DNA of 63,124 nt from Candidatus Caccoplasma merdipullorum (GCA_017694415.1 JADIMW010000076.1:1-63124); one strand, 5' to 3'. Counted from the first letter of the stretch, positions 2,393 through 57,787 are shown. The notes: generated from the letters alone by a model not told the origin. Translations and numbers: made by a program.

Positions 2393-2400
2393 ACCTACAT

Positions 2401-6913: not shown

Positions 6914-11800
<4,887 letters not shown>

Positions 11801-43479: not shown

Positions 43480-44565
43480 ATGGTTGATAACGGTCATTAT
43501 TATTATTATTTCATCGTTGGAATGGCTGTCGCTTTTTTCGGGATAATGGGCGTTATGAACTTATGGCAGCCGGAAAACCGACTGCGGAAAATTCTCGGCG
43601 GGATACTTGTTTTCTGGATGGTTCAGCATATAGTATCGGTCTGTTTTATTTCGGACTTCTATTCCAACAACAGATATTTCAGCAGAATAATCAATGCTTT
43701 CGATATGACAGCCACTCCTACCTGTTGTTTCTTGCTGGTGGAGTTATGCAAACCCGGCTGGCTGACTTGGCGTAAGGTTGTGTATAACGAACTCCCGTTC
43801 GTTATTCTCGGCTTGGCATTTATAATGCTGGATAATGTTCTTTGGTATTATGCTCTTGTGGGATTTTTTGTTGCATACAGTATTACCGTTACTTTTTTTA
43901 TCGTACATTTTATAACCGAATACAACAAATTCCTAAAAGCTCACTTCTCGTACGACGAAAATATTAACTTGAGGTGGCTATATGCCGTACTGGCTACATT
44001 CATAGTCCTGATGCTGGTTTATGCCGCGTGCAGTTTATACGATACTGCTGTCGGCGACAGCGTTTATATTGCAGGTTCTATTATCGGGTGGGCAATGATT
44101 TGTTATTTTATCCAACGGCAGGAATCGGTTTTACTTGAACTCGACCCTGTTAAGGAGGAAGGGAATGATGACAAGGAGGTATGGCCGGATTGCGAAGTTC
44201 CCCGCAACCTCGCAAAATTGATACAGGAACGTTTTATCGAACCGCAACTGTTTTTAAACCCTCAATTAAAACTCGGAGACATGGTGCAGGCCATAGGGAC
44301 AAACCGTACTTACATGAGCCGGTATCTGAACGACATATTGAAAACGAACTTTTACGATTATATTAATGGCCTGAGACTGAAATACGCACAAAAACTTATC
44401 GAACAGTCGCAATACAGCATTAAGGCCATCGCCGCAATCGCGGGCTTTAACAGCTATTCTACTTTCAGACGCTCTTTTATCGCCACTTACAAGCAATCTC
44501 CTCAAGAATACAGAAACAACATACAACAGATAAATTATGAACGAACAGCAAAGAAACCAATATAA
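43480..44565 (+). CDS. AraC-family transcriptional regulator with an N-terminal polytopic membrane domain
   Basis: The N-terminal ~200 aa are hydrophobic with about 6 TM segments. The C-terminal HTH_18/AraC domain has LGDMVQAIGTNRTYMSRYLN... and IAAIAGFNSYSTFRRSFIATYKQSPQEYR. Confidence 0.8.
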   Translation: MVDNGHYYYYFIVGMAVAFFGIMGVMNLWQPENRLRKILGGILVFWMVQHIVSVCFISDFYSNNRYFSRIINAFDMTATPTCCFLLVELCKPGWLTWRKVVYNELPFVILGLAFIMLDNVLWYYALVGFFVAYSITVTFFIVHFITEYNKFLKAHFSYDENINLRWLYAVLATFIVLMLVYAACSLYDTAVGDSVYIAGSIIGWAMICYFIQRQESVLLELDPVKEEGNDDKEVWPDCEVPRNLAKLIQERFIEPQLFLNPQLKLGDMVQAIGTNRTYMSRYLNDILKTNFYDYINGLRLKYAQKLIEQSQYSIKAIAAIAGFNSYSTFRRSFIATYKQSPQEYRNNIQQINYERTAKKPI

Positions 44566-45544
44566 AGAGAAAGAAGAGGCTTTGAGTAAAACACAAAGCT
44601 GCTCGCATGAACACCGCAAACTGATATGCGGCAACTGCGGCGCGACTTACGACGACGGCGACCTGTTCTGCCCTGAGTGCGGGAACAGGCTCGGCGGCAG
44701 GAAATGTCCGAATTGTCATGCCGAAATAACCGCAACTTGCGAAATTTGCCCTAAATGCGGAAAACCTACCGACTTGGGACATTGCTCGTTCTGCGGAGCG
44801 GAGTTCGAAGGGGATGAACCGTTTTGCGGAGAGTGCGGCTCGCCGCGGGCGGGAATTGTATGTCCCGATTGCGGCACAAAATCGTTCCGCTCGTTCTGTC
44901 CCAACTGCAACAGGCCACTGAACGACAATGCCATGATGGCAATGGAACAGGCGAAAAACGACCCTAAATATCAACGGGTTCTCAGCATTAACAAGGAAAT
45001 GGCCGAAATGGAGGAATACCTTATCAGTTTTAAAAATGAAATTGAAAAGGCTATTGCCGAAGCGGAGGCCGAGATGGATGCTCCCGATGTTCCGGGTCTT
45101 AGTGCCGAGGGAGAGGCTTTACAGGCCAAATATGCCGAATTGATGAAATTGCTGGGTAACCAGCCTAATAATATGCCGCAGCCGAATACCAAGGCTGCAC
45201 GGCCTAAAGAATCGGTAAAGCGCAAGCGCGATTTGAAACTGAAGTTTGCCGATGCCGATAAAATAATGGAGGCATATAAGGCTAAGGCCGCAGAAATGCA
45301 GTCGGCATTGAAAGAGATGCTTCCCGACGCCGACATGACTCCTGCTCAACAGCGCGATTATGCTTGCGCCAGAAAAGTTCCTGTAATAATCAGGGAAAAA
45401 GAGGAGAAGAAGACATGGTGGGTTTGCAACTACTGCGGATGTTATCATCGCCAACCTTCGGAATGTGCCGAACCGTGGCAGGGCGGGACATGGCTTACCG
45501 AAGAAATCGTGGTAGAGAAAAAGATATGGCAATATATGGACTAA
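44537..45544 (+). CDS. Multi-zinc-ribbon coiled-coil protein (four tandem CxxC...CxxC ribbons, a coiled coil, and a C-terminal Cys/Trp-rich motif)
   Basis: Ribbons: CGNCG..CPECG, CPNCH..CPKCG, CSFCG..CGECG and CPDCG..CPNCN (aa 31-125). A K/E/A-rich helical middle follows. The tail is WWVCNYCGCYHRQPSECAEPWQGGTW. The ATG overlaps the AraC gene end by 29 nt. Confidence 0.75.
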   Translation: MNEQQRNQYKEKEEALSKTQSCSHEHRKLICGNCGATYDDGDLFCPECGNRLGGRKCPNCHAEITATCEICPKCGKPTDLGHCSFCGAEFEGDEPFCGECGSPRAGIVCPDCGTKSFRSFCPNCNRPLNDNAMMAMEQAKNDPKYQRVLSINKEMAEMEEYLISFKNEIEKAIAEAEAEMDAPDVPGLSAEGEALQAKYAELMKLLGNQPNNMPQPNTKAARPKESVKRKRDLKLKFADADKIMEAYKAKAAEMQSALKEMLPDADMTPAQQRDYACARKVPVIIREKEEKKTWWVCNYCGCYHRQPSECAEPWQGGTWLTEEIVVEKKIWQYMD

Positions 45545-45560
45545 TCTAAATTTTACTATA

Positions 45561-48500
45561 ATGTCGAGTACAATACGTCCTGACGGGACTCTACGTTCTC
45601 CGTCCGACAAAAAGAACAATGGCGGCACACAACGCCCGAACAACGATATAAAACCTTTTGACGACGAAAAAGCCGCTCAATCGGGTACGCAACGCCCTGC
45701 GGCAACGGGCAACCGTCCGCAACAATCCGGTACGCAACGCCCGGATAGCGGTATCAAGCCTTTCGACGGCGGGAACTCTTCTCAGTCGGGTACACAACGC
45801 CCTGCGGCAACGGGCAACCGTCCGCAACAATCCGGCACGCAACGCCCGGGCAGCGGTATCAAGCCTTTCGACGGCGGGAACTCTTCTCAATCGGGAACAA
45901 AGCGTCCTGCAACGGCAGACGAGCAGTCGAAGAAATCGGGTACGCAACGCCCTTCGTTAGACAAAGACAAACAACAGGCAGCTAATAAGCAACAGGTTAA
46001 AGCCGCAGATATAAAAGTGCTTAAACGGGATGATGAATCGTCTGCAAAGGAGTTCGTGCTGAATGGCGTCGTTTATACTGTCGAAGGGCTTATATCGTCT
46101 TCGACGGGAGAGGCCGAGGTGTATAAATTGAGCAAAGGGGGTAATTTGTACGCGTTGAAACTTTATTACTGCGGGTATTCTCCCGACCCTGAAGTGATAA
46201 AGATTCTTAAGGGGATTACCGGTACGGGATTTCTTGTGGATATTATCGATGCCGGTACATGGACTTCTCCGCAGGGGGAGGTGCGCGATTATGAATTGCA
46301 GCCTTATTACAGCGGCGGAGAACTGACGGCTGGAGCGATGAAAAACAAGGCCGAGGTTTTAAAAGCTACTGCTGCGGGGATGATTATGGCGGTAAAGGTA
46401 GCTCACGACCATAATATCTTGCATAAGGATATTAAACCGGGAAATTTCTTCTATTGCGACGAGAGCCATTCTCAAATTATTTTGGCGGATTTCGGTATCG
46501 CGTCGGCATTTAAGCGCGACAGCTCCGGGACAATGATTCCGCTTAAGGCTTATGCGCAATGGAGAACGAAGATTTATGCGGCTCCTGAAATATATACGGC
46601 CATAGACGGGGAGATAGAATATCCCGACGAGAAAAGCGATTATTATTCGCTCGGCATGTCGCTGCTTACCTTGTGGATTGGGGAAAAACCGTTCGAGAAT
46701 ATCGACGAACGCGCGATGATACGTCTGAAACGCGGGGAGAGCGGGACTCTTCCCTACCCCGACGATATGCCGCAACAATTGCTGCATCTGATAAAGGGAC
46801 TGACTGTTCCCAACCCTGAAAAGCGTTGGGGATTCAACGAATTTGAGCGATGGGCGAGAGGCGAGAATGTCCCCGCGGAGGATAATTCACGCCCGTCGGC
46901 AAGCGGACTGAATATTCTTTACAACGGTTCGAAAAATCAAGTCGCTACTTCGAAGGAAGAACTGGCCGCCTTTATGATGGATGATACGAAACTTGCCGAA
47001 CAATACTTGTATAGCGGAAAGATATCGAACTGGATGCTGGAGGCGGGTTATCCCGAAGTGCAAATTCAGATAGATGAAATTATAAATAAACTTTATCCTA
47101 AATCGCGGTACAGCGGAGTAATGGCTGTTTGCTACCTGCTCGATGCCGGGCTGCCGTTTATCGGGATAAAGGGGGACAAACTGAATACCAATGCGGAGAT
47201 TGCCGATGATATAGCCAACAACCCCGATGAATATCAGAAATCGCTCGTTAATGCCGATGCTCCGCTCTATGTGTTTTTCAATGCGAACGGTATTAACCTC
47301 GCCGACAAGTTTCTGCCTATTTTCAAGAAGAATTCCTGGCACGCCGTATGGCAACTCGTTTTTACGCTCGACCCTGCCCACCCGTTTCCTTACAATAATC
47401 CGGAATCGAAAATATTCCGCTGGTGCGATTCGGTAGAGGAGATTATCGACGCTTATGCTTCAGGCCCGATGGATAAATTTACCGATTTGGGTTATCGTAA
47501 CCGGTTCAACACTTATTGCGAACTTATGCTCGGCGATGCGTTCTTCTTATGGCTGGCTCACCGCGACCCGGCTTTAGCAGGCAAGATTAAGAGCAAACTC
47601 TCCGGCGAAAAGGATACGAAGGGGCATCTTATTTACTATCTGCTTTACCTCCTCGACCCTGAACTGCCTTATGAACTCGATAAAAATGCCGACAGCAAAC
47701 ATTTCAACGCCGCACAAATAGGTGTTATGGTCAACACCGATTTACTGATGTATTATATTGCAGGGCGCGAAGAGGGGTACGACAAGTTCGAAAAGAATCT
47801 CGAATCGGCAAACATGCTTGTCGACTGCCGCGATAACAGAATATACTACTATTTGAAGAGTAAGGACGTTTACAAAGACAAACTCGATTATATCTATTAT
47901 TGTTTCGACCTCGAATCGAAAGACAACAAACGGAAAGCGGGACCTTATGATGTCAATATCGCAATATTCAAAGCTATCAAGGCTCTGGCCGGCGATACGT
48001 TCTACTTCTTTCCGAAAAGCGGGAATAGCGTTTCATCGCTCGACGAATTGAAAGATGTGCCTATGGATGAGCAACAATATGAATTGCAAAACGGATTGTT
48101 GAGACATTGGCTGGCCGTACAGTTCCAGGAAGACCCGTTTGCAGACCTTTCGGAAGAGTATTCTTACGAGAATCTGCTGGCTGAATATACCATAGCTCTT
48201 TCCGAAATAGACCCCGGAATTGAAGAACTGCAACGTTTCAACGATGCTTGCGATGATATACAGGGCAGGGTTGACAAGATAAAGAGGAATATCCGAAGTA
48301 TTCGGATAATAAGAGGAGTATGGTATCTCCTCGTTGCACTGCCCCTGCTGCTGATTGGCACAGCGTATTTTATTTGGGGCGTCGAATCGCAATTGACTTC
48401 CGTTATCTCGTGGAAATGGGTTTGGCTGCCGATATTGTCGCTGGCTATACCGCTGCGTTTTCTGCAAATCGTTCCCGCCATCGAGAATGGGTTTACTTCG

Positions 48501-49214
48501 CTTTTCGGCGAAAAACTGGGGGATGCTCTTACCTACCACCGCTGGATTACCTCCGTTTTAATAGCTGCCGTTCCGATTCTGCTTTTTAAGGCAATAGATG
48601 AATGGGGCGGAGAGTACGGTTTTATCTTTATGTCTGTTATTTGCCTCGCTGTTTTATGGGTGCAGTTTTACAAGACAATATTGTCATGCAGACTCTATAT
48701 TAAGTCTTACGACAATGAAATAAATCCGGATGTCGAAGCCGGCACTATCGAACCGCTTTTCTACGCATGGAAAGACAAGGATTCGGATGCGCCTTTTGAA
48801 TCTTCGATAGAAGACGACCAGACATTTTACAACAATGCTCTCGGCGCGATACGCAGAACTACGCTACGGAAAATTTTCAGCGGACTGGTTTATGTTATTC
48901 TTATTTTCTCCTTATGGAGCATTACGTCGCCGGCAAGCACAAAACTGATGCAGCAATATTGCCCGGGTTTTTATGAAATGGTAAGGGAGAGCATGGAGGG
49001 TAGCGCCGCCCAAACCTCGACATATCAGGTCATAAACGTCAAAAGTTCTTTGATGGTACGAGAGAAACCGACTACAAGTTCAACTGCCATCGGTTCGCTG
49101 CGCAACGGACAAAAGATAGAAGTTTATGAAATAGTGGACGGGTTCGCCCGTATCAAATACGGCGACCGCGAGGGGTATGTTAAGGAGACTTACTTGAAAC
49201 TGATTAATGATTAG
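45561..49214 (+). CDS. Transmembrane Hanks-type Ser/Thr protein kinase with a TQRP-repeat N-terminal tail, an unknown ~460-aa central region, ~5 TM helices and a C-terminal SH3b domain
   Basis: Kinase motifs (aa ~165-432): YALKLY (catalytic Lys), HKDIKPGNF (catalytic loop), DFGIA and YAAPEIY. Hydrophobic helices span aa ~915-1125. The C-terminal segment YQVINVKSSLMVREKPTTSSTAIGSLRNGQKIEVYEIVDGFARIKYGDREGYV is SH3_3-like. Confidence 0.85.
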   Translation: MSSTIRPDGTLRSPSDKKNNGGTQRPNNDIKPFDDEKAAQSGTQRPAATGNRPQQSGTQRPDSGIKPFDGGNSSQSGTQRPAATGNRPQQSGTQRPGSGIKPFDGGNSSQSGTKRPATADEQSKKSGTQRPSLDKDKQQAANKQQVKAADIKVLKRDDESSAKEFVLNGVVYTVEGLISSSTGEAEVYKLSKGGNLYALKLYYCGYSPDPEVIKILKGITGTGFLVDIIDAGTWTSPQGEVRDYELQPYYSGGELTAGAMKNKAEVLKATAAGMIMAVKVAHDHNILHKDIKPGNFFYCDESHSQIILADFGIASAFKRDSSGTMIPLKAYAQWRTKIYAAPEIYTAIDGEIEYPDEKSDYYSLGMSLLTLWIGEKPFENIDERAMIRLKRGESGTLPYPDDMPQQLLHLIKGLTVPNPEKRWGFNEFERWARGENVPAEDNSRPSASGLNILYNGSKNQVATSKEELAAFMMDDTKLAEQYLYSGKISNWMLEAGYPEVQIQIDEIINKLYPKSRYSGVMAVCYLLDAGLPFIGIKGDKLNTNAEIADDIANNPDEYQKSLVNADAPLYVFFNANGINLADKFLPIFKKNSWHAVWQLVFTLDPAHPFPYNNPESKIFRWCDSVEEIIDAYASGPMDKFTDLGYRNRFNTYCELMLGDAFFLWLAHRDPALAGKIKSKLSGEKDTKGHLIYYLLYLLDPELPYELDKNADSKHFNAAQIGVMVNTDLLMYYIAGREEGYDKFEKNLESANMLVDCRDNRIYYYLKSKDVYKDKLDYIYYCFDLESKDNKRKAGPYDVNIAIFKAIKALAGDTFYFFPKSGNSVSSLDELKDVPMDEQQYELQNGLLRHWLAVQFQEDPFADLSEEYSYENLLAEYTIALSEIDPGIEELQRFNDACDDIQGRVDKIKRNIRSIRIIRGVWYLLVALPLLLIGTAYFIWGVESQLTSVISWKWVWLPILSLAIPLRFLQIVPAIENGFTSLFGEKLGDALTYHRWITSVLIAAVPILLFKAIDEWGGEYGFIFMSVICLAVLWVQFYKTILSCRLYIKSYDNEINPDVEAGTIEPLFYAWKDKDSDAPFESSIEDDQTFYNNALGAIRRTTLRKIFSGLVYVILIFSLWSITSPASTKLMQQYCPGFYEMVRESMEGSAAQTSTYQVINVKSSLMVREKPTTSSTAIGSLRNGQKIEVYEIVDGFARIKYGDREGYVKETYLKLIND
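45684..45893 (+). repeat. 105-bp in-frame tandem duplication (2 copies, 5 mismatches by my count) inside the kinase N-terminal tail
   Basis: Copy 1 is 45684-45788 and copy 2 is 45789-45893. Each encodes GTQRPAATGNRPQQSGTQRP(D/G)SGIKPFDGGNSSQS. More diverged copies flank them. Confidence 0.9.
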
Positions 49215-49219
49215 GTGTC

Positions 49220-52200
49220 ATGAAATGTAATAATTGTAATACGGATAATCGTCAGGAGGCTCTGTTTTGTAAACATTGCGGAGGGAAACTCGCTCTGCCC
49301 GATACCGACCCGTTTATCGGACTCGTCGGACTTACGGATATTAAACAGCAGATAGCCCAGCTTATTACCACCTTCAATTCTGTGAAGAACAGGGGTGCGA
49401 ATATTACCATCGGGTGCGATACTATTATCATGGGAGCCTCGGGTACCGGCAAGACTCATCTTGCCAACGCTATCGCCAAGGCTCTTTACAGCGCGAATAT
49501 CGTAAAACAGCCGAGGCCGCTAGTTGTGGATGCGGTAGATTGGGATAATTTCGTAAAGGACTGGCAGGAGAATATAAAAAAGGTTCAGGACGGTATTCTT
49601 ATTATAGACAATGTTCAGAAACTTGTTCCGGACGGGTATTCGAAGAATGTTGACAAACTCGATATCTTGTTCAGCGGAATGGACAAGTGGAACGGGAATC
49701 CCATCGTTATAATAACAGGTCTCCCGGACGGATTCAGGGAATATATAGAAGGGAATCCGCAGGTGAGGAACAAGTTTGAGTATTTCTTCCGACTTGAAGA
49801 GTATTCGGCTCAGGAACTTACGGCTATTTGCATAAAGGCTCTGTCGGAAAAATACAAGGTAGGCATAGAAGCCGATGCTTACGGCAAGCTCGAAAGGGTA
49901 ATGATGTTCATTGTCAGGAATAAACCTGAGGGTTGGGGCAACGCTCATGCCGCCCTGAAAATGGCCGATGAGATTTTCTACAACATGGTGCGCCGGGGCG
50001 GAGAAACTGTTTCGTGTGCGGATATCGAGGGTACCGAGTATCGGGACAAGACTTCGGAGGAGATTATGGCGGAACTTGACGAGTTCGTCGGTATCGACAA
50101 TATTCGTACTGAGATAAGGAACTTGATTTCGGAACTAGAATTGAGCAAGGTCCGCTCGAACAAGGACGGCAGCGGCGAGATTAATTCGCATTATATTTTT
50201 TCGGGTAATCCCGGTACGGGCAAAACTACGATAGCTCGCAAAATGGCCGATATTTTCAAAGCTATGGGGGTACTGCCCATAGGGCATCTGGTAGAGGCAG
50301 ACCGCAGCAAACTCGTCGGACAATATGTCGGACAAACGGCAATACAGACAAACAGACTTATAGATAAAGCCATGGGCGGCGTTTTGCTTATAGACGAGGC
50401 TTATACGCTTAATCAGGGGGACAGCGACAATTTCGGACATGAAGCTATCGATACTCTGCTGAAACGACTGGAGGATGACCGCGGGAAGTTCGTATGTATC
50501 GTTGCCGGATATACAAAACAGATGTTCGATTTTATACAGTCGAACCCCGGACTTAAATCGCGCTTTAACAAGGATATTCGCTTTGAGGATTATGACGGGG
50601 GTTCGCTTACGGCGATATTCCGCCAACAGATGGCTTCGAAATCGAAAGAGATGCCCCGGCCGCTGACTTTATCGGACGAGGCGGAACGTAACTTGCGCAA
50701 CTTCTTCGATATGATGTATGCCACCAGAGACAGGAATTTCGGTAATGCAAGGGATGTGCGAAAAGTATTCGAAACAGCCATGTCGCGACAAAGCGCCAGA
50801 CTTACCAAATTGCGTACCGAGGGGCAATTTACTCCCGACATGTTGTTCGTCCTTACCCGCGACGATATTGAAGGGGATGAAAATACACGCGAACTGAATC
50901 TCGACGACATTATGGCTAAAATGGAACGCGAGTTTGTCGGCATGCAATCGGTTAAAGACGCCATGCGGACAATAGGCAAGAAAATGGCTACGAACAGGTT
51001 GAGAATGGAACATGGCGTGGGCGATGCCAAAACTCTTGGCATACATATAAAACTTACGGGTAACCCGGGTACGGGAAAGACCACCGTTGCCAGAACTCTG
51101 GGTGAAATGTTGAAAGCGGTACATGTGCTTCCTACCGATAATGTAATAGAGGTTGACCGCAGCAAGTTGGTTTCGCAGTATGTAGGTGAAACGGCAAAGC
51201 TCGTAAACCAGACCATCGACCGCGCGATGGGGGGTATCTTGTTTGTGGACGAGGCTTATACGTTATCGCAGGATTCGGGCAGCGGCTCGGATTTCGGGAA
51301 GGAGGCTATCGAGACTTTGATGAAACGGATGGAGGACGACAGGGGCAAGTTCGTCTGTATCCTCGCAGGCTACCGCAACGAGATGGATAATTTCATGAGG
51401 GTCAATCCGGGTATAAAGAGCCGCATTACACACCATATCCATATCGAGGATTATTCTCGCGACGAACTGCTGCAGATTTTCAAGAACATGGTGAAGAAGG
51501 AAAAAATGGTTCTTACGCCTGAAGCGGAAGAATTGTCGCGCCGCGCTGTCGATGAAATCGTTTCGGCTAAAAGCAAAGACTTCGGAAATGCCCGGGAAAT
51601 GAGGAAGCTGCTCAATACCACGCTCGACAATCAGGCTAACCGCATTGACAGGCTCGACGGCAATGTTACTAAGGAACAGCTTATAACAATAGAAGCGGAA
51701 GATATTCCGGTTGCAAAACATAAGGATATTGACGAGGAGGAATGTCTGAAGGCTCTCGACAAACTTGTCGGACTCGACGGTGTTAAACAGGAGGTGCGCA
51801 ATCTTGTAAATTACCTGAAGCTGGAAAAGATGCGTGCGGAAGCTCTCGGCAAAAAGTTCGCGGGCATGAGAGACCACTATCTTTTCCTCGGCAACCCGGG
51901 TACGGGAAAAACAACCGTCGCCAGAATAATGGCCGATGTATTCCTGTCGCTTGGCATAACGACGAAGAGCGGCATTGTTGAGGTTGACCGCAGTAAGCTT
52001 GTCGCAAAATACGTGGGTCATACTGCTGAACAAACCAACAACGTAATTGACAGCGCCATGGGCAGCATTCTGTTTATCGATGAGGCCTATACTCTTAATC
52101 AGGGTCCGCAGGACAATTTCGGGAATGAGGCTATCGACACTCTGCTGAAACGTATGGAGGATGACCGCGGCAAGTTCGTATGTATTGCTGCGGGGTATTC

Positions 52201-52549
52201 TTATGAGATGGGCGAGTTCCTCGCTGCCAACTCCGGATTGCAAAGCCGCTTTAACAAAACGATTGTATTCGAGGATTATGATGCTGCTTCGCTCGCTGAA
52301 ATATTCCGCCGCAAGGCTGCCGGAGAGAATTTCACCATGTCGCCCGAAGCTGAATCCGCCATGGTAAACCGCTTTGTCGAACTGTACGAAAACAGGACTC
52401 AAAACTTCGGTAATGCGCGCGAGGTTAATAATGTCTTCCAGAAAGTAAAAGAACGGCAAAGTCAGAGAATTATAGATATGATGATGAAGGGGGGGAGACC
52501 TTCGCCGGCCGACTTGTTGAGTTTTACGCCCGAAGATTTCGCTTTTTAA
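49220..52549 (+). CDS. Zinc-ribbon plus four tandem AAA+ modules (CbxX/CfxQ/SpoVK-like), with the first module degenerate
   Basis: N-terminal ribbon: CNNCN...CKHCG. Walker A motifs are GASGTGKTH (aa 72), GNPGTGKTT (aa 329), GNPGTGKTT (aa 614) and GNPGTGKTT (aa 891). Walker B is LIIDNV in module 1 and L(L/F)(I/V)DEAYTL in modules 2-4. DRGKFVCI(V/L/A)AGY recurs in modules 2-4. Confidence 0.85.
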   Translation: MKCNNCNTDNRQEALFCKHCGGKLALPDTDPFIGLVGLTDIKQQIAQLITTFNSVKNRGANITIGCDTIIMGASGTGKTHLANAIAKALYSANIVKQPRPLVVDAVDWDNFVKDWQENIKKVQDGILIIDNVQKLVPDGYSKNVDKLDILFSGMDKWNGNPIVIITGLPDGFREYIEGNPQVRNKFEYFFRLEEYSAQELTAICIKALSEKYKVGIEADAYGKLERVMMFIVRNKPEGWGNAHAALKMADEIFYNMVRRGGETVSCADIEGTEYRDKTSEEIMAELDEFVGIDNIRTEIRNLISELELSKVRSNKDGSGEINSHYIFSGNPGTGKTTIARKMADIFKAMGVLPIGHLVEADRSKLVGQYVGQTAIQTNRLIDKAMGGVLLIDEAYTLNQGDSDNFGHEAIDTLLKRLEDDRGKFVCIVAGYTKQMFDFIQSNPGLKSRFNKDIRFEDYDGGSLTAIFRQQMASKSKEMPRPLTLSDEAERNLRNFFDMMYATRDRNFGNARDVRKVFETAMSRQSARLTKLRTEGQFTPDMLFVLTRDDIEGDENTRELNLDDIMAKMEREFVGMQSVKDAMRTIGKKMATNRLRMEHGVGDAKTLGIHIKLTGNPGTGKTTVARTLGEMLKAVHVLPTDNVIEVDRSKLVSQYVGETAKLVNQTIDRAMGGILFVDEAYTLSQDSGSGSDFGKEAIETLMKRMEDDRGKFVCILAGYRNEMDNFMRVNPGIKSRITHHIHIEDYSRDELLQIFKNMVKKEKMVLTPEAEELSRRAVDEIVSAKSKDFGNAREMRKLLNTTLDNQANRIDRLDGNVTKEQLITIEAEDIPVAKHKDIDEEECLKALDKLVGLDGVKQEVRNLVNYLKLEKMRAEALGKKFAGMRDHYLFLGNPGTGKTTVARIMADVFLSLGITTKSGIVEVDRSKLVAKYVGHTAEQTNNVIDSAMGSILFIDEAYTLNQGPQDNFGNEAIDTLLKRMEDDRGKFVCIAAGYSYEMGEFLAANSGLQSRFNKTIVFEDYDAASLAEIFRRKAAGENFTMSPEAESAMVNRFVELYENRTQNFGNAREVNNVFQKVKERQSQRIIDMMMKGGRPSPADLLSFTPEDFAF

Positions 52550-52690
52550 AATTACTATTCCGCAATATCGATTTTATATTCAGAATAGTGAAAGAGTGGT
52601 ATTTACAAAGAATTAAAAATATAATGACACCGGAATATAATTGTTCCGAATAAGAACCGCCGGTGTTTAACTTATGATATTTTTTGATTT

Positions 52691-53350
52691 ATGATATGTC
52701 CTAAATGTAAAGCTGATATTCCTGATGATTCCTGGTTCTGCGACCAATGCGGTTGCGAGTTGATGTTTTGCCCTAAATGTAAATCTCCGGCAAAAGGAAA
52801 ACGCTGTACTCAATGCGGCTCGGAACTGGTTACGGGCAAGGAGCTGGGTTTATTCGCGTCTCAACCGGCAACGGCAGCCTCGACGACGCAAGTCCCAAAC
52901 ATTTCTCAACAGCAGAATAATACTACGACGAATATCGACTATAACGATGTATTGAAAAATAACATTTCTGCTCAACCGCAGCCACGGCAACAGGCTCAAC
53001 CGTCCGGTTCTTCTACTTTGCGCGGCTCGTCCGACAGCGCAGGGGGCGTCGATGCGGGTCCTTCCAGACTGGTTATGTTGGATGACCCGTCGAAAGTTGT
53101 GGTGTTTAAGGATAACGGTATTATCGGAAGGACAAACGGAGATTATCTGGATGTTTTTTCGAACCTGCCTTATGTCAGCGGCACGCACGCCAAATTTACA
53201 TTGCACTCGTCGAAGCAATGGCTTATTGCAGACCTCGGTTCGACGAACGGTACGAAATTGCAGAATACCGACTTGATACCTAACAGTAATTATCTGCTTA
53301 AAAAGGGGCAGATTATAGAAATAGGATTCGTTAAATTCAGAGTGGAATGA
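52691..53350 (+). CDS. Double zinc-ribbon plus FHA domain protein
   Basis: N-terminal ribbons CPKCK..CDQCG and CPKCK..CTQCG are followed by a Q/T/S-rich linker. The C-terminal FHA has GIIGRTNGDY...VSGTHAKF...LIADLGSTNGTKL. Confidence 0.85.
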   Translation: MICPKCKADIPDDSWFCDQCGCELMFCPKCKSPAKGKRCTQCGSELVTGKELGLFASQPATAASTTQVPNISQQQNNTTTNIDYNDVLKNNISAQPQPRQQAQPSGSSTLRGSSDSAGGVDAGPSRLVMLDDPSKVVVFKDNGIIGRTNGDYLDVFSNLPYVSGTHAKFTLHSSKQWLIADLGSTNGTKLQNTDLIPNSNYLLKKGQIIEIGFVKFRVE

Positions 53351-54093
53351 AAATCATATACGATGCGGCAAGCGATATGGGGTGCGTACGCTCCAATAAC
53401 GAAGACATGATTCTTATAGACAGGTCTTTCCTGCGCGATGAATCGGCTTCGGGCGAGGTTTTAGTGGATGGCAACAGCAGATTCTGTGCTATTGTTGCAG
53501 ACGGAATGGGAGGAAATAACGGTGGCGAGTTTGCTTCGGATATTGCCTGCCAGGAGTTCGATTCATGGATTAACGATATTCCCTCTAAATTGACTCATGG
53601 GGAGATTCGTGCAAAAGTAAACGAATTTGTACTTAATACTCACACCCTTATAAACTGCAAAGGGGATGAAATGGAGGAATTTAGCGGTATGGGTACCACT
53701 CTCGTCGGCATTTTCTTCTATGAAGGCAGTTCGTATTGGGTCAATATCGGGGATAGCCGCATATATATTTACAGGGACGGCATATTGCGTCAGATTTCAC
53801 GCGACCATTCGATGCGGAACTTGATGAACAATCCGGAACTGCCGGCTAACCTCATTTACAACTCTCTCGGGTCGGGAACCGGCACTGACAGCTTCGCCGA
53901 CTGCGACAATATACCTCTTTTTGAAAATGACTGCATCTTGATTTGTTCGGATGGCCTGAGCGATATGGTCGATGATGAAAAATTAGCTCTTCTGCTTAAA
54001 CAATATGCACCTGCTTCAGCATATGTTTCTTCTGCTAAAGCAGCCGGAGGGGAAGATAACATTTCTGTTATAACCTTATCAATATATAAATAA
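53347..54093 (+). CDS. PP2C-family Ser/Thr protein phosphatase (Stp1/PrpC-like)
   Basis: Motifs are RSNNEDM, VADGMGG, GTTLVG, NIGDSRIY, SDGLSD and GGEDNISVI. The start overlaps the FHA gene stop (ATGA). Confidence 0.9.
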   Translation: MKIIYDAASDMGCVRSNNEDMILIDRSFLRDESASGEVLVDGNSRFCAIVADGMGGNNGGEFASDIACQEFDSWINDIPSKLTHGEIRAKVNEFVLNTHTLINCKGDEMEEFSGMGTTLVGIFFYEGSSYWVNIGDSRIYIYRDGILRQISRDHSMRNLMNNPELPANLIYNSLGSGTGTDSFADCDNIPLFENDCILICSDGLSDMVDDEKLALLLKQYAPASAYVSSAKAAGGEDNISVITLSIYK

Positions 54094-54183
54094 CCTTCTC
54101 CACGCGAATTAGCACTTTCTCGGTGCTTGGTTTATATTTTGAAAAACTTTGAATCAATTAATATGAAAATAGAAATTCCCCGT

Positions 54184-54308: not shown

Positions 54309-55214
54309 GTGTATCTGAAAATAAGTCATTGGAAATGTTCGTTGCATGATTGGGACGACTATTACAGTAATGATAACGACAATAAGCAAAATTGTCGTTT
54401 TTGCGAAGATTGTTTTTTCCCTTTAAAGTTGGGGGTAATTGAAAAATACCCGTTTTTCGAAATAACGGAAATAAATGCGACAGACATAGAAGTTTGTCAT
54501 TCCGGCGGAGGACTCGCAAGCTACGGTACTTTCTGCCGTGAGGTGTCGCATGTTATCCCGTCTGCCGACGAAATTGTCAGATATAAAAAAGAAAAAATAT
54601 CCGTAAACTCATCTGTTCAAATTTATTATGGTTTCTGTTACAGCGAATCCGAAACGAGAGATTATTTCGAACTCGAACTGTTAGATGGACCTTGTTCGCG
54701 CAAGACATGGAACATGATGCGGGTACAACACGAAGGGTGTATCATAACCTTTCAGCGCGAGGATATAGTTCCCAACAGCAAATTGAGCGATATTCGCCGA
54801 CGTCCCGACAACTCTGAAATCCCGTGGCTTAATATCAAAATAAAAGAAATTTATACGGAGGGCTTGTCGGTAATGTTCGATAATTTCAATTATATTTATC
54901 ACGTAAAATGCGATGCTCCGATACGGGAAAACGGTGTAACAATATCATTGGTTTCGTGTATCGAACTGTTTGAAAGCGACATTGAAAACGACTTTTTCCG
55001 CTATGAAATCGATATCGATATATGGGAAAATCATGAAAAGGATGCGGATGCAGCTCTTGCAGTGGCTGAAAGCATTGCCGAACAGACCCCGGAGGCTCTC
55101 GAAATTATCGCCCGTTATATGGATATTGCCGATTGTCTTGGGGCTGCCGATGCTCGTGCTTGGCTTGCCGACTATTATGGAACAACAGACTCAAAATACG
55201 ATGCTTATGTGTGA
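54309..55214 (+). CDS. Hypothetical protein (Cys-rich N-terminus, acidic helical C-terminus)
   Basis: 301-aa ORF with only non-ATG starts available (GTG at 54309 or TTG at 54342). I recognise no family. Coding potential is inferred from length and the overlap-coupled downstream gene. Confidence 0.5.
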   Translation: MYLKISHWKCSLHDWDDYYSNDNDNKQNCRFCEDCFFPLKLGVIEKYPFFEITEINATDIEVCHSGGGLASYGTFCREVSHVIPSADEIVRYKKEKISVNSSVQIYYGFCYSESETRDYFELELLDGPCSRKTWNMMRVQHEGCIITFQREDIVPNSKLSDIRRRPDNSEIPWLNIKIKEIYTEGLSVMFDNFNYIYHVKCDAPIRENGVTISLVSCIELFESDIENDFFRYEIDIDIWENHEKDADAALAVAESIAEQTPEALEIIARYMDIADCLGAADARAWLADYYGTTDSKYDAYV

Positions 55215-55872
55215 AGACTGTATTGATATACCTGAATACCGTAAGGAACTGCTTTCGAAAATAGCCGCCTCGCCGGATGATTTGGAAAGCATGGCTGAAT
55301 TGGTATGTGCCGATTGCCTTATCTGCGAGAAGAATGTAAAGGACTTCGGACCTGCATGGAAAAACTCCGTGTTTGTAAACGAAATACTGGAGTATGCTCC
55401 CGTATTGCTGAAGGAGAAAGGAAACGAATATGGCAATATTGTATTCAACGTATGCGATAGAGTGAAAGACGTGCTGTTTAATCACCCGCGCCTGATGGTA
55501 AAGCTGTTAAAACTGGAATTGAAGGCTCTTGATACAAGTAAGGATATTGACGGGGACAAACAGGAAATAAAAAAGGGTATAGAAAAAAAAATAGAGTTTC
55601 TCGAAGTAAATATTAAAAGGGCCGACATGGGGAATCTGGAACAGTGCGAAAATATCGGCATGTTGAAAAGAGACCCGGTGGAATGGACGGCAGAATATGA
55701 AAAAGTTATAGATGAGGCTGAAGAAAAAGCCAATGCCGAACTTGCGGATGTACCTCGCGGTATGGGATTCTGCCATGCTTACTGGCACTCTCTTGCCAAT
55801 ATTCTTTTCGAGGATTACGGTATTGTCTGGCGCAGCCCGGCCATGATGAATCCCGGCGTTATGTTCGACTGA
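55201..55872 (+). CDS. Hypothetical protein with the C-terminal motif GMGFCHAYWHSLANILFEDYGIVWRSPAMMNPGVMFD
   Basis: I chose the ATG at 55201 (MLMCEDC...) within the longer 54970-55872 ORF. It overlaps the upstream stop by 14 nt. Family unknown. Confidence 0.5.
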   Translation: MLMCEDCIDIPEYRKELLSKIAASPDDLESMAELVCADCLICEKNVKDFGPAWKNSVFVNEILEYAPVLLKEKGNEYGNIVFNVCDRVKDVLFNHPRLMVKLLKLELKALDTSKDIDGDKQEIKKGIEKKIEFLEVNIKRADMGNLEQCENIGMLKRDPVEWTAEYEKVIDEAEEKANAELADVPRGMGFCHAYWHSLANILFEDYGIVWRSPAMMNPGVMFD

Positions 55873-56512
55873 TGCGCCTTTTGTACGGTTTTGCCGAAAT
55901 TGCATACGGTCATCTGCAACAACACGGTAGGTTTTAGGGTTTTACAATATGTACGTTTTGACCTTTTTCAATCTGCCAAAATATATACGAAACAATTGTA
56001 CCCATATTAAATAAAGTAAAGGCATAAAGGGTATTCTACAGACCTATAACATACATTTATGTTATTTTTCTCTCTCTTTTGGAATACCTGCTCAATACGA
56101 ACAGGCAAAGACTAAATTTCTCGATGTATTAAAAGCTCTCTGCCTATTCATCGGCCGTTTCATTATCGACCCGACATCGGGAAACCTCTCTGTATCTGCT
56201 TGCAGATTATATGGCATTCTTCCCGTCGCCGAACGGCTGGCGGGGTATTAGGCTCACCCGAAAGAAATTTCGTGGCAGACGGGCAAGCCCGTTGGAGAAT
56301 GGTTGTGGCAAGAACATAACACAATTATTGAAGCGAATTATCGCTAAACTTCCACTTGATTATTAAGGATTTCAACTACCCTTTATCCAAAAAATACAAA
56401 AAAATATAGCCGAATAGCGCTGTATTTTTTAGCCAAAAAAGGTAATTTAATTTAGCCACATATGGAAATTCTAAAATATAGTATTATCTTTGCCCATAAT
56501 CAGTATATAGAT

Positions 56513-57787
56513 ATGAAGACATATAAACCGAGAATCGCGGATAAGGAGTTACAACGAAAGCTAGCAGGTATCGGTGCTGTTTTGATTGAAGGACCTAAAT
56601 GGTGCGGTAAAACTACAACTGCGGAGCAACAGGCGTCCACAATCATCTACATGGACGATCCTTTGTACAAAGAACAGAATCTCCGTATGGCTGATATAAA
56701 TCCGAAAGCGTTGTTGGTCGGAGAATGTCCCATATTGGTAGATGAATGGCAACTTGCTCCCAAATTATGGGATACAATCCGTTTTGAAGTCGATCACCGA
56801 GAAGGCGAAGGTCTTTTTATTTTAACTGGTTCGGCTGTTCCTGCAAAAACAGAAGAAATTCATCATTCAGGAGCAGGTAGATTTGCATGGCTAACTATGC
56901 GTCCCATGAGTTTATACGAGTCGGGGGAATCTTCTGGAGAAGTGAGTTTGGAGGGGATGTTTGAAACTCCAGATAATATAATGGGAATCAACAAATTGTC
57001 GCTTGATGATATTGCTTTTTTAATTTGTCGTGGTGGGTGGCCTCGTGCATCATTGCAAACAGGAGATATTGCGCTGGATCAAGTGAAATACTATTATGAC
57101 GCTGTGACGCGTTCGGATATTTCTCGAGTAGATGGCGTTCGACGCAATCAAGAACGGGCAAAACGATTGATGCGTTCATATGCTCGGCATCAAGGTTCTC
57201 AGGCTCCCATCAGTACTATTGTAGAAGATATGCGAGTGAATGATGAGGAATCAACGGATGTAAAAACAGTTACTTCTTATATTGACGCTCTGAAAAAAAT
57301 TTTTGTCATAGAAGATTCTGTTGCATGGAATCCTAATCTGCGCTCAAAGACAGCTATTCGGACATCTGATACCAGGTACTTTGTTGATCCGTCAATTGCT
57401 GTTGCTGCTTTGGGTCTTGGCCCCAAGGACCTGATTAATGATCTGAATACAATGGGGTTGTTGTTTGAGACGCTTTGCATCCGGGATTTACGCGTATTTG
57501 CGAGCGCTTTAGATGGACAAGTTTATCATTTTCGAGACAAGTACGGCCTCGAATGTGACGCAGTTGTTCATCTGCGCAATGGTAAATTTGGCCTTATCGA
57601 AATAAAACTTGGCGGAGACCAACTTATAGAGCAAGGCGCAACTACCTTAAAAACATTGGCTGCAAAGATAGATACGGATAAAATGAAAGCCCCGTCTTTC
57701 TTAATGGTATTGACGGCTACAGGAAAATTTGCCTATCGACGTGCAGACGGAGTTTATGTGGTTCCTATTGGATGCTTAAAAGACTAA
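56513..57787 (+). CDS. AAA+ ATPase of the AAA_14 / DUF4143 family
   Basis: Start at MKTYKPRIADKELQRKL. Walker A is IEGPKWCGKTT and Walker B is ILVDEWQ. The size and C-terminal region are typical of DUF4143 proteins. Confidence 0.75.
   Translation: MKTYKPRIADKELQRKLAGIGAVLIEGPKWCGKTTTAEQQASTIIYMDDPLYKEQNLRMADINPKALLVGECPILVDEWQLAPKLWDTIRFEVDHREGEGLFILTGSAVPAKTEEIHHSGAGRFAWLTMRPMSLYESGESSGEVSLEGMFETPDNIMGINKLSLDDIAFLICRGGWPRASLQTGDIALDQVKYYYDAVTRSDISRVDGVRRNQERAKRLMRSYARHQGSQAPISTIVEDMRVNDEESTDVKTVTSYIDALKKIFVIEDSVAWNPNLRSKTAIRTSDTRYFVDPSIAVAALGLGPKDLINDLNTMGLLFETLCIRDLRVFASALDGQVYHFRDKYGLECDAVVHLRNGKFGLIEIKLGGDQLIEQGATTLKTLAAKIDTDKMKAPSFLMVLTATGKFAYRRADGVYVVPIGCLKD

What the first reader, a model, noticed from the sequence alone, without database searches (positions are those of the whole stretch)
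44627..52830. The same short zinc-ribbon module is fused to the N-terminus of three different proteins in the locus
The coiled-coil protein carries four CxxC-(9-13)-CxxC ribbons (nt 44627-44911). The AAA+ protein starts with one (MKCNNCNTDNRQEALFCKHCGG, nt 49226-49285). The FHA protein starts with two (CPKCKADIPDDSWFCDQCG and CPKCKSPAKGKRCTQCG, nt 52697-52825). Recurrent fusion of one small module to otherwise unrelated partners in a single operon suggests a shared docking or targeting function. That could be a common ligand, nucleic acid, membrane patch or mutual oligomerisation, rather than coincidence.
Basis: seen in the sequence. Interest (0 to 1): 0.7.

Follow-up and report, generated by a model that had tools for sequence, protein, structure and literature searches.

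The report
Zinc-ribbon triad in kinase–AAA+ cassette
Seven small zinc-ribbon modules sit on three of the five proteins of an undescribed, widely conserved kinase / phosphatase / phospho-reader / AAA+ motor gene cassette of Bacteroidota. They are kept in every relative examined, so they are almost certainly a working part of the machine, most likely its assembly handles.

Summary
The window encodes exactly seven CxxC…CxxC ribbons in real genes. All seven lie in three adjacent proteins, and all match Pfam Zn_Ribbon_1/DZR.

The genes form a five-gene operon:
- ZCC, with four ribbons, a coiled coil and a C-terminal Cys/His domain
- a polytopic Ser/Thr kinase with a periplasmic SH3b domain
- an AAA+ protein with one ribbon and four SpoVK/CbbX-type modules
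- an FHA protein with two ribbons
- a PP2C phosphatase

I recovered about 100 related loci from Bacteroidota and an Ignavibacteriota-type MAG family. Every complete copy keeps the ribbons on the AAA+ protein (44/44 in one set) and on ZCC (37/37), even where gene order is permuted. Seventy ribbon-less AAA+ relatives lie outside the cassette.

The seven ribbons are not interchangeable copies. Each position has its own conserved sequence and charge, and there is no sign of concerted evolution.

The kinase N-terminal tails carry arrays of Thr-x-Arg repeats, which are probable phospho-docking sites for the FHA protein.

The closest analogues are McsA–McsB–ClpC–YwlE, the ClpX zinc domain, and the T6SS PpkA/Fha/PppA/ClpV pathway.

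PADLOC, NCBIfam and my literature searches gave no description of this cassette.

The parts
44537..45544 (+). ZCC: 335-aa protein with four zinc ribbons, a helical/coiled-coil region and a C-terminal Cys/His beta-hairpin domain.
   Evidence: Pfam DZR 5.9e-15. AF2 model has pLDDT 83.7 and pTM 0.66, with no PDB fold match. The family is small: 205 clusters at E<=1e-30.
44627..44683 (+). ZCC ribbon 1 (C31-G49). Acidic. Optional, being absent in some orthologues.
44705..44761 (+). ZCC ribbon 2 (C57/C60/C71/C74). Acidic.
   Evidence: The Cys ligands are at least 90% conserved in A2.
44783..44839 (+). ZCC ribbon 3 (C83/C86/C97/C100-G101). Acidic, and invariant in the family.
   Evidence: Invariant columns in A2.
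44861..44911 (+). ZCC ribbon 4 (C109/C112/C121/C124). Near neutral, and invariant in the family.
   Evidence: Invariant columns in A2.
45419..45493 (+). ZCC C-terminal conserved motif W-x-C-N-x-C-x3-H-x2-P-x2-C-x2-P-x-LGG-x-W. A probable fifth metal site.
   Evidence: W295, C297, H304, P307, C310, G316, G317 and W319 are invariant in A2. Alignment.
45561..49214 (+). Hanks-type Ser/Thr kinase, 1217 aa, with five predicted TM helices and a periplasmic SH3b domain.
   Evidence: Pkinase 2.4e-23 and SH3_3 5.4e-11. HKDIKPGN and DFG motifs and TM positions. Orthologues carry 2x SH3_3 or PG_binding_1.
45561..46040 (+). Kinase N-terminal tail with nine T-x-[RK] motifs, mostly SGTQRP. Candidate multi-pThr docking array.
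   Evidence: T-x-[RK] occurs at 4.77/100 aa in the tails against 0.53/100 aa in the rest of 17 kinases.
49047..49199 (+). SH3b domain (aa 1163-1213), placed outside the cytoplasm after the fifth TM helix.
   Evidence: Topology is my inference.
49220..52549 (+). Ribbon-headed AAA+ protein with four tandem SpoVK/CbbX/EccA-type modules.
   Evidence: AAA 1.1e-65 in 4 stretches and AAA_lid_6 in 3. TIGR02881, TIGR03922 and TIGR02880 hits. AF2 pLDDT 82.5.
49226..49285 (+). AAA+ N-terminal ribbon, basic in most orthologues.
   Evidence: C3, C6, N10, R11, A14, C17, K18, C20 and G21 are invariant in A1. Present in 99/120 top homologues. Two of the ribbon-less entries, the two I checked, are mis-called starts. 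The ribbon has lower-confidence pLDDT and a tethered linker.
49322..50074 (+). AAA module 1. Walker A is intact (GASGTGKT), Walker B is D-N (IIDNVQKL), and there is no YVG pore loop. Probably binds ATP but does not hydrolyse it.
   Evidence: N131, Q133, K134 and L135 are invariant in A1. Motif counts.
52691..53350 (+). Protein with two ribbons, a roughly 90-aa low-complexity linker and an FHA domain.
   Evidence: FHA 1.9e-11 and DZR 5.2e-07. The pThr-binding residues G146, R147, S163, H166, N186 and G187 are invariant in A3.
52697..52753 (+). FHA ribbon 1. Acidic, with signature DS-x-[FY]-CDQCG.
52769..52819 (+). FHA ribbon 2. Strongly basic, with signature G-[KR]-R-C-T-x-C-G.
53347..54093 (+). 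PP2C Ser/Thr phosphatase. Its start overlaps the FHA stop by 4 nt.
   Evidence: PP2C_2 8.3e-16. Stp1/IreP-type 2.1e-45, below the NCBIfam cut-off.
54111..54127 (+). Terminator-like hairpin just after the PP2C stop. Probable end of the operon.
   Evidence: This is a consensus scan only.

Best explanation
The ribbons are a defining, conserved part of a self-contained five-gene phospho-signalling and remodelling cassette: ZCC, membrane Ser/Thr kinase, ribbon-AAA+, ribbon-FHA and PP2C.

Proposed mechanism:
1. The polytopic kinase senses something at the envelope. In part of the family its periplasmic end is a peptidoglycan-binding SH3b or PG_binding_1 domain.
2. The kinase phosphorylates the Thr-x-Arg repeat array in its own cytoplasmic N-terminal tail.
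3. The FHA protein reads these phosphothreonines.
4. The FHA protein's two ribbons sit on a long flexible linker. Together with the ribbon array of ZCC and the single tethered ribbon of the AAA+ protein, they act as heterotypic protein-protein docking modules. These bring the AAA+ motor and the Zn/coiled-coil regulator to the active kinase.
5. The motor has one inactive module and three active modules.
6. The AAA+ protein then remodels or unfolds a client, or ZCC itself.
7. PP2C resets the system.

Shown here: the domain identities, the operon, the strict retention and co-occurrence of the ribbons, their class-specific conservation, and the Thr-repeat tails.

Inferred: zinc binding, autophosphorylation, FHA binding to the tail, ribbon-mediated docking, and the client.
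For: - Ribbon identity and clustering.
- Operon structure: gaps or overlaps of 16, 5, 141 and -4 nt, and a terminator-like site after PP2C.
- The cassette, with ribbons on all three proteins, is found in L001-L009 and L013, L084-L092 and L093-L172. In the last set 44/44 complete AAA+ ORFs and 37/37 ZCC ORFs carry ribbons.
- There are two gene orders: 31 canonical loci and 6-7 permuted.
- Ribbon-less AAA+ relatives (70 loci) and a sister clade with a different N-domain (L081-L083) lack the kinase, FHA and PP2C genes.
- 9 of the first 21 AAA+ residues are invariant over 14 proteins of 40-84% identity, including the non-ligand residues N10, R11, A14 and K18. That points to a conserved surface.
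- Ribbon classes have conserved sequence and charge signatures.
- T-x-[RK] repeats are about nine-fold enriched in the kinase tails.
- The FHA pThr-binding residues are invariant.
- The AAA+ ribbon and the FHA ribbons are tethered by low-confidence or low-complexity linkers.
- Precedents: the McsA zinc domains and coiled coil bind and reassemble the kinase McsB in the mcsA-mcsB-clpC operon (PMC11046695). Small domains shared between core and accessory proteins are proposed to mediate homotypic recruitment, as for the EADs (PMC7159879).
Against: - No interaction was tested or modelled, because no multimer prediction was available.
- Charge covariation between ribbon classes is not compensatory. 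The correlations are positive or absent, and they are confounded by phylogeny.
- The ribbons belong to the most generic bacterial ribbon family. The ZCC profile (ribbons included) hits 16,115 representative clusters at E<=1e-3, most of them presumably through the ribbons. That family's function is unknown and has also been proposed to be nucleic-acid binding (PMC3355149).
- No client or effector is evident in the cassette.
- The periplasmic sensor domain is variable, and absent in Prevotella-type kinases.
Confidence: 0.42

Rival explanations
1. Shared non-protein ligand. The ribbons each bind nucleic acid or an anionic membrane surface. The three proteins are therefore co-localised at the membrane next to the kinase, or on DNA/RNA, without touching each other.
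For: Two ribbons are consistently basic: AAA +2.3 and FHA R2 +3.3. Paired N-terminal ribbons of these Pfam families are typical of the cytoplasmic ends of membrane proteins and have been suggested to bind nucleic acid (PMC3355149). The kinase is membrane-embedded.
Against: Four of the seven ribbons are strongly acidic (FHA R1 -3.3; ZCC R1-3 sum -7.6), which is poor for binding DNA or anionic lipid. Class-specific signatures argue against a single common ligand.
Confidence: 0.2
2. Redox or zinc switch. The Cys4 sites are thiol-oxidation sensors, as proposed for McsA and as known for Hsp33 and RsrA from my own knowledge. In these anaerobes, oxidation would release zinc and switch the assembly or the AAA+ activity on or off.
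For: There are seven Cys4 sites plus a further conserved C/H cluster on three proteins of one system in obligate-anaerobe lineages. McsA zinc motifs have been proposed as an oxidative-stress sensor (PMC11046695). One locus lies directly after the BatA-BatD operon (L089).
Against: The evidence is purely circumstantial. The cassette also occurs in large-genome environmental Bacteroidota (L085, 7.6 Mb contig). Conserved non-Cys surface residues are not explained by a pure redox role. The Bat adjacency is seen in one locus only.
Confidence: 0.12
3. The cassette is an anti-phage or conflict system. The ribbons would be invader-sensing or effector-recruiting modules rather than housekeeping assembly handles.
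For: The distribution is patchy and the family small: 202 ZCC clusters and 205 representative clusters at E<=1e-30. Flanks vary between loci. Some neighbours are defence-like: RloB/AAA_21 in L090, CHAT and WD40 in L089, and a PDC-S01-type ATPase downstream in the window. The kinase and AAA domains resemble those of mad6, PD-T4-6 and IetA at domain level.
Against: No PADLOC system matches beyond generic domains, and ZCC, FHA and PP2C have no hits at all. There is no nuclease, pore or protease effector. The window context is ordinary core chromosome. Periplasmic peptidoglycan-binding domains point to envelope sensing.
Confidence: 0.15
4. No shared function. The ribbons are generic stabilising caps that are common in this phylum and happen to sit on three neighbours.
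For: The ribbon family is very large and promiscuous (16,115 hits at E<=1e-3). Ribbon-PP2C and ribbon-kinase fusions exist elsewhere (NF011149; PMC7159879).
Against: None of the other genes in the window carries a ribbon. Retention is 44/44 and 37/37. Co-occurrence of the AAA+ ribbon with the cassette is strict. Invariant non-ligand residues are present.
Confidence: 0.06

Closest known systems
McsA-McsB-ClpC-YwlE system of Bacillus (ctsR-mcsA-mcsB-clpC operon)
   Same: A multi-zinc plus coiled-coil protein is encoded immediately upstream of a protein kinase, which is followed by an AAA+ unfoldase gene, with a dedicated phosphatase. The McsA zinc domain binds the kinase, and its other zinc domain and coiled coil reassemble the oligomer (PMC11046695). 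The phospho-mark directs clients to the AAA+ protein.
   Different: There is no homology. McsA's zinc domain 2 is helical (PMC11046695), not a ribbon, and ZCC has no Pfam hits other than ribbon families and weak ATG14. From my own knowledge, McsB is a phosphagen-type arginine kinase rather than a Hanks Ser/Thr kinase, and ClpC is an Hsp100 that reads phospho-arginine with its own N-domain. The AAA+ protein is of SpoVK/CbbX type, with four to seven modules in one chain.
T6SS threonine phosphorylation pathway (PpkA / PppA / Fha, with ClpV)
   Same: A membrane Hanks kinase, a PP2C, an FHA reader and an AAA+ ATPase control the assembly of a machine. The FHA protein binds a phosphothreonine on a membrane component (PMC3953482, abstract).
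   Different: There are no T6SS structural genes in the window or listed in the related loci. From my own knowledge, the T6SS proteins carry no ribbons. The AAA+ clade also differs.
ClpX N-terminal zinc-binding domain (own knowledge, not tested here)
   Same: A small Cys4 zinc module at the extreme N-terminus of an AAA+ unfoldase, tethered by a linker, serves as the docking site for adaptors and some substrates.
   Different: The fold family differs (zf-C4_ClpX, not Zn_Ribbon_1/DZR). In the ClpX system the partners do not carry the same kind of module.
Effector-associated domains (EADs) of NTP-dependent conflict systems (Kaur et al. 2020, PMC7159879)
   Same: One small domain is fused to a core component, and further copies are fused to otherwise unrelated partner proteins of the same system. 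The authors propose that they recruit by homotypic interaction.
   Different: EADs are described as a distinct set of small domains, not zinc ribbons. In those systems they link variable effectors, whereas here the partners are fixed and the ribbon classes are anciently diverged. The cassette has no MoxR-vWA or GTPase core.
Pfam DZR / Zn_Ribbon_1 architectures with phospho-signalling domains (e.g. NF011149 ribbon-PP2C phosphatase; ribbon-kinases of GAP1-N2 systems)
   Same: The same ribbon family is fused to PP2C, kinase or FHA proteins in other phyla.
   Different: Those are single fusions. In the searches I ran, I found no report of a conserved triad of ribbon-bearing proteins including an AAA+ motor and a multi-ribbon coiled-coil protein.

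Membership tests
Pfam Zn_Ribbon_1 (PF13240) / DZR (PF12773) | Match to the family profile above the gathering score | tested here: met
   ZCC scores DZR 55.6 and Zn_Ribbon_1 52.7 bits. The FHA protein scores DZR 30.2 bits against 27.3. The AAA+ N-terminus alone scores Zn_Ribbon_1 26.3 bits against 25, while its DZR score of 25.3 is below 27.3.
Pfam Zn_Ribbon_1 / DZR | Four metal ligands in two CxxC knuckles, conserved in relatives | tested here: met
   Invariant Cys columns in A1, A2 and A3. The last ligand of FHA ribbon 2 is H or D in three non-Bacteroidales loci.
Pfam Zn_Ribbon_1 / DZR | Actual zinc binding | not testable with these tools
   Needs metal analysis of purified protein.
FHA domain (phosphothreonine reader) | Profile match plus the conserved G-R, S-x-x-H and N-G pThr-binding residues | tested here: met
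   PF00498 scores 44.7 bits against 20.7. G146, R147, S163, H166, N186 and G187 are invariant.
Hanks-type Ser/Thr kinase | Catalytic loop H-x-D-x-K-P-x-N and the DFG motif | tested here: met
   HKDIKPGN starts at 0-based offset 287 (residue 288) and DFG at offset 309 (residue 310). Pkinase scores 83.3 bits.
PP2C phosphatase | Profile match above cut-off | tested here: met
   PP2C_2 scores 58.6 bits against 24. Against the Stp1/IreP equivalog it scores 155 bits against a cut-off of 230, so it is not that equivalog.
SpoVK / CbbX / EccA clade of AAA+ | AAA core followed by AAA_lid_6; match to the clade models | tested here: met
   AAA in 4 stretches and AAA_lid_6 in 3. TIGR02881, TIGR03922 and TIGR02880 score 629-761 bits, summed over the modules.
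SpoVK, CbbX or EccA proper (equivalogs) | Single-module (SpoVK, CbbX) or TPR plus single-module (EccA) architecture and the corresponding genomic context | tested here: not met
   Four to seven tandem modules with an N-terminal ribbon. The window has no RuBisCO, sporulation or ESX genes.
McsA | Sequence homology to the McsA zinc domains | tested here: not met
   ZCC matches only ribbon families and, weakly, ATG14. There is no PDB sequence or fold match to McsA. The resemblance is architectural only.
T6SS threonine phosphorylation pathway | Linkage to T6SS core genes | tested here: not met
   None found among the genes of the window that were scanned, nor in the precomputed Pfam lists of related loci.
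Known anti-phage defence systems (PADLOC-DB 2.0) | Matches to the specific component models of one system | tested here: not met
   Only generic kinase and AAA domain hits. ZCC, FHA and PP2C have none.
Effector-associated domains (EAD concept) | Same small domain on a core component and on accessory proteins of one system | tested here: met
   Ribbons on three of five proteins, conserved.
Effector-associated domains (EAD concept) | Homotypic interaction; partners that vary between systems | tested here: inconclusive
   Interaction was not testable. The partners here are fixed, not variable, and the ribbon classes are diverged.

The most novel reading that the evidence does not exclude
The seven ribbons form a heterotypic 'zinc-ribbon code'. 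This would be a new kind of adaptor set in which acidic ribbons (ZCC R1-3, FHA R1) and basic ribbons (AAA, FHA R2) pair specifically. The pairing would assemble a phosphothreonine-gated AAA+ remodelling machine at a membrane receptor kinase. That machine would be a previously undescribed envelope-surveillance or stress system of gut and environmental Bacteroidota, and a Ser/Thr-phosphorylation counterpart of the arginine-phosphorylation McsAB-ClpC pathway.
Probability: 0.3. Interest if true: 0.75.

Novelty: new variant of a known kind. Interest (0 to 1): 0.55.

Why it matters
Kinase/PP2C/FHA modules are known regulators of bacterial machines, and AAA+ motors are known to use N-terminal domains to pick partners.

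This cassette joins the two through a shared small zinc module, in a phylum where Ser/Thr signalling is little studied. It is common in human-gut and rumen metagenomes; for example, one AAA+ cluster has 1,649 member sequences.

If the ribbons are the docking code, they would give a concrete role to a very abundant 'zinc ribbon domain-containing protein' annotation. They would also offer a tractable model for how phospho-marks are coupled to an unfoldase outside the Firmicutes McsB-ClpC paradigm.

The cassette also holds single-chain AAA+ proteins with four to seven modules, which is interesting for ring assembly.

Tried and rejected
1. Known-system assignment. PADLOC, NCBIfam and Pfam gave only domain-level hits. 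Six full-text literature searches, plus one more on the ribbon Pfam families, found no description of the cassette.

2. 'Ribbon replaced by Clp_N in a sister AAA+ clade'. A precomputed PF02861 listing exists for P0042. My own Pfam scan of the P0061 N-domain found nothing at E<=0.001. I therefore say only that the sister clade has a different, helical N-domain and a different gene context.

3. 'Natural ribbon-loss variants'. P0028 and P0040 looked ribbon-less, but the ribbon is in frame just upstream of the called start.

4. Fold assignment of ZCC. The model is confident, but there is no significant PDB match. Only local ribbon hits and a weak resemblance to MSMEG_4306 were found. The PDB sequence search gave only bL32-type ribbons.

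5. Charge covariation as a proxy for contact. No compensatory signal was found.

6. Homologue search with the kinase middle domain. It returned only 4 hits, so no alignment or model of that domain was made.

7. Sigma-70 promoter scan. It is uninformative for Bacteroidota.

8. AraC-type membrane regulator upstream (43480-44565). It is not conserved next to the cassette in other loci, so I do not count it as a part.

Full report
**1. The observation**

The region encodes, on the + strand:
- a TM + AraC-HTH protein (43480-44565)
- a 335-aa zinc-ribbon/coiled-coil protein, here called ZCC (44537-45544)
- a 1217-aa Ser/Thr kinase (45561-49214)
- a 1109-aa AAA+ protein (49220-52549)
- a 219-aa FHA protein (52691-53350)
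- a 248-aa PP2C (53347-54093)

- Pfam assigns ZCC and the FHA N-terminus to DZR/Zn_Ribbon_1 above the gathering scores.
- The AAA+ N-terminus, scanned alone, reaches Zn_Ribbon_1 at 26.3 bits against a cut-off of 25.
- A six-frame regex scan of the whole 63 kb window finds no further such motif in any real gene. Three of the five operon genes carry them, and none of the other genes in the window does.
- The rest of the window is ordinary Bacteroidota chromosome: MetH, DAP dehydrogenase, Lgt, SprA, GDH, RuvC, DnaN, RecN, CoaBC, AmtB and a T9SS-tailed beta-galactosidase.

**2. Operon**

- The intergenic distances are 16, 5 and 141 nt, and the FHA and PP2C genes overlap by 4 nt.
- A terminator-like hairpin follows PP2C at 54111-54127.
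- The AraC-type gene overlaps the ZCC start, but it is not conserved beside the cassette elsewhere.

**3. Do orthologues keep the ribbons? Yes.**

Anchored on the AAA+ protein:
- 99 of the 120 best homologues start with the ribbon.
- In an alignment of 14 proteins at 40-84% identity, C3, C6, N10, R11, A14, C17, K18, C20 and G21 are invariant.
- The ribbon-less entries include fragments and members of a sister clade with another N-domain. Two apparently ribbon-less entries, checked on DNA, are mis-called starts. The ribbon lies in frame just upstream.

In the scan of one genome per GTDB species:
- The ten loci whose AAA+ protein has the ribbon (Bacteroides, Prevotella, Muribaculaceae and other Bacteroidales) all carry ZCC and the kinase. 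All but one also carry the FHA and PP2C genes.
- In those loci ZCC has 3-4 ribbons and the FHA protein has 2.
- The 70 loci with ribbon-less CbbX-like AAA+ proteins have none of these neighbours.

Further look-ups:
- The full cassette turned up on a 7.6 Mb contig (L085).
- It also turned up in further loci, some with the genes rearranged (L086-L092).
- A Melioribacteraceae MAG holds the AAA+, FHA and PP2C genes on a contig that is cut off upstream (L084).

A metagenome scan anchored on the FHA protein gave 80 more loci.
- The search pattern was ribbon 1 of the FHA protein, so the FHA ribbon in that set is present by construction.
- All 44 complete AAA+ ORFs have the ribbon, and all 37 complete ZCC ORFs have at least two ribbons.
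- Two gene orders occur: 31 loci with ZCC-STK-AAA-FHA-PP2C and 6-7 loci with FHA-PP2C-ZCC-STK-AAA.

**4. The ribbons are related but not interchangeable**

Across 15 cassettes, identity at non-Cys positions behaves as follows.
- It is 0.36-0.55 within a ribbon class (for example AAA, FHA R1, ZCC R3) but 0.15-0.28 between classes.
- Between-class identity is the same within a genome (0.207) as between genomes (0.199).

So there is no concerted evolution. These are seven old, separately constrained modules.

Net charge is class-specific over 35 non-redundant cassettes:

| Ribbon class | Mean net charge |
|---|---|
| AAA | +2.3 |
| FHA R1 | -3.3 |
| FHA R2 | +3.3 |
| ZCC R1-R3, summed | -7.6 |
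| ZCC R4 | +0.7 |

I found no compensatory covariation. ZCC R3 and R4 are invariant in the family, R2 is nearly so, and R1 is optional.

**5. The partner proteins**

*Kinase*
- It has the HKDIKPGN and DFG motifs.
- A conserved cytoplasmic middle region of about 450 aa follows the kinase domain and has no Pfam match.
- It has five predicted TM helices and a C-terminal SH3b domain, which by topology is periplasmic.
- Orthologues end in 2x SH3_3, in PG_binding_1, in an unassigned beta-rich domain, or in nothing.
- Its N-terminal tail holds nine T-x-[RK] motifs (SGTQRP and variants).
- Fourteen of 17 orthologous tails hold such repeats, for example DKTIRSG x10, DKTLRPG x7 and GGTMRQP. The other three hold different Thr repeats.
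- The motif density is 4.77 per 100 aa in the tails against 0.53 in the rest of the proteins.

*FHA protein*
- All pThr-binding residues are invariant.
- A low-complexity linker of about 90 aa separates the ribbons from the FHA domain.

*AAA+ protein*
- All four modules belong to the SpoVK/CbbX/EccA clade.
- Module 1 keeps Walker A but has D-N in place of D-E in Walker B, and it lacks the YVG loop. Modules 2-4 are intact.
- Relatives have four to seven modules in total.
- The AF2 model folds each module well (pLDDT 82.5), with uncertain inter-module geometry (pTM 0.44).
- The ribbon and its linker are at lower confidence, which suggests a tethered head.

*ZCC*
- It gives a confident AF2 model (pLDDT 83.7, pTM 0.66).
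- It has no significant PDB fold or sequence relative.
- Its C-terminus carries an invariant W-x-C-N…H…P…C…LGG-x-W motif, a probable fifth metal site.
- The family is small: 202 clusters in the 90% database and 205 representative clusters at E<=1e-30.
- Source names are only 'zinc ribbon domain-containing protein' or 'hypothetical protein' (one JGI entry reads 'uncharacterized OB-fold protein').

**6. Mechanism**

The parts suggest a kinase-gated AAA+ machine.
1. The membrane kinase marks its own Thr-repeat tail.
2. The FHA protein reads the marks.
3. PP2C erases them.
4. The ribbons, which are tethered on the FHA and AAA+ proteins and arrayed on ZCC, provide the contacts that bring reader, regulator and motor together.

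This is inference. It rests on four points:
- the strict retention and co-occurrence of the ribbons
- the invariant non-ligand surface residues
- the tethered geometry
- precedent

The best precedent is McsA. It has two zinc domains plus a coiled coil, it is encoded just upstream of the kinase McsB and the AAA+ protein ClpC, and its zinc domain binds the kinase while the rest reassembles the oligomer (PMC11046695). Other parallels are the ClpX zinc domain as an adaptor dock (own knowledge), the T6SS PpkA/Fha/PppA pathway (PMC3953482), and the EAD concept (PMC7159879).

Rivals:
- A shared non-protein ligand (membrane or nucleic acid). Four of the seven ribbons are strongly acidic, which argues against it.
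- A redox or zinc switch, for which the evidence is circumstantial.
- A role of the whole cassette in phage defence. The distribution is patchy and a few neighbours are defence-like, but there is no effector and no PADLOC system match.
- Coincidence, which is disfavoured.

**7. Novelty**

Every domain is known, and ribbon fusions to PP2C or to kinases are catalogued elsewhere. PADLOC, NCBIfam and my full-text literature searches turned up no description of this five-gene cassette, of the ribbon triad, or of ribbon-headed multi-module SpoVK-type AAA+ proteins. I classify it as a new variant of a known kind: a Ser/Thr phospho-signalling module coupled to an AAA+ motor.

**8. Verdict**

The ribbons are not a coincidence and very probably mark a functional link. 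They are seven specialised ribbons rather than one repeated tag, and the docking mechanism remains untested.

Noticed in passing
window 45561-46040; also kinase N-termini in L001, L002, L088, L089, L090, L092: The kinase N-terminal tail is an array of short Thr-x-Arg repeats (SGTQRP, GGTMRQP, DKTIRSG, DKTLRPG and others). The repeat sequence differs between lineages, but the Thr and Arg are kept. The motif is about nine-fold enriched over the rest of the protein.
   Followed up: yes
window 49322-50074, and homologues P0001-P0120: The first AAA module is conserved but degenerate: Walker B is D-N (IIDNVQKL) and there is no YVG pore loop. The number of modules per chain varies from four to seven (about 1109, 1391, 1675 and 1940 aa). 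This raises the question of how rings are closed.
   Followed up: partly
window 45419-45493: ZCC ends in an invariant Cys/His motif (W-x-C-N-x-C-x3-H-x2-P-x2-C…LGG-x-W) inside a predicted beta-hairpin domain.
   Followed up: partly
window 54970-55872 (true start probably near 55200); L006 5444-6025, L007 3-569, L165 1799-2404: An unannotated protein of about 190-200 aa, ending in GMGFCHAYW…NPGVMFD, lies downstream of PP2C in the window. Its homologue lies immediately upstream of ZCC in three other loci. It may be a loosely linked accessory gene. It overlaps another 301-aa ORF (54309-55214) that has no homologues in the related loci searched.
   Followed up: partly
window 56462-57787: A DUF4143 / AAA_14 ATPase that matches the PADLOC candidate defence family PDC-S01 (5.8e-61), about 2.4 kb downstream of the cassette.
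   Followed up: no
window 329-3438 (- strand; GC 0.35-0.39): A low-GC segment holds a McrB-like AAA_5 protein and a C-5 cytosine DNA methylase. It is probably a restriction-modification island.
   Followed up: no
L081-L083 (P0061 and relatives): The closest ribbon-less sister AAA+ proteins (56-58% identical) have a helical N-domain of about 190 aa in place of the ribbon. They sit between a ThiF-like gene and an SH3_3 gene, upstream of five radical-SAM genes, next to conjugative-transposon genes (TraM/TraO/TraQ, integrase). This is a quite different context.
   Followed up: partly
L096, L116, L118, L119, L122, L124, L129: Permuted gene order FHA-PP2C-ZCC-STK-AAA. In L116 a further AAA+ gene end precedes the FHA gene, so some genomes may hold two cassettes in tandem.
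   Followed up: partly
L004 11345-12352, L005 17406-18380, L008 17440-18348, L009 12015-12995, L013 17327-18292: In Prevotella-type loci a conserved membrane protein of about 320 aa, with a C-terminal zinc ribbon (CGQCG…CPHCG), lies about 3.5 kb downstream of PP2C. It may be mere synteny.
   Followed up: no
window 6914-11707 and 27046-34557 (- strand): A 1597-aa GH2 beta-galactosidase with GEVED and a T9SS C-terminal sorting domain, and a 2503-aa SprA. Together they mark the source as a T9SS-bearing member of the Bacteroidota.
   Followed up: no
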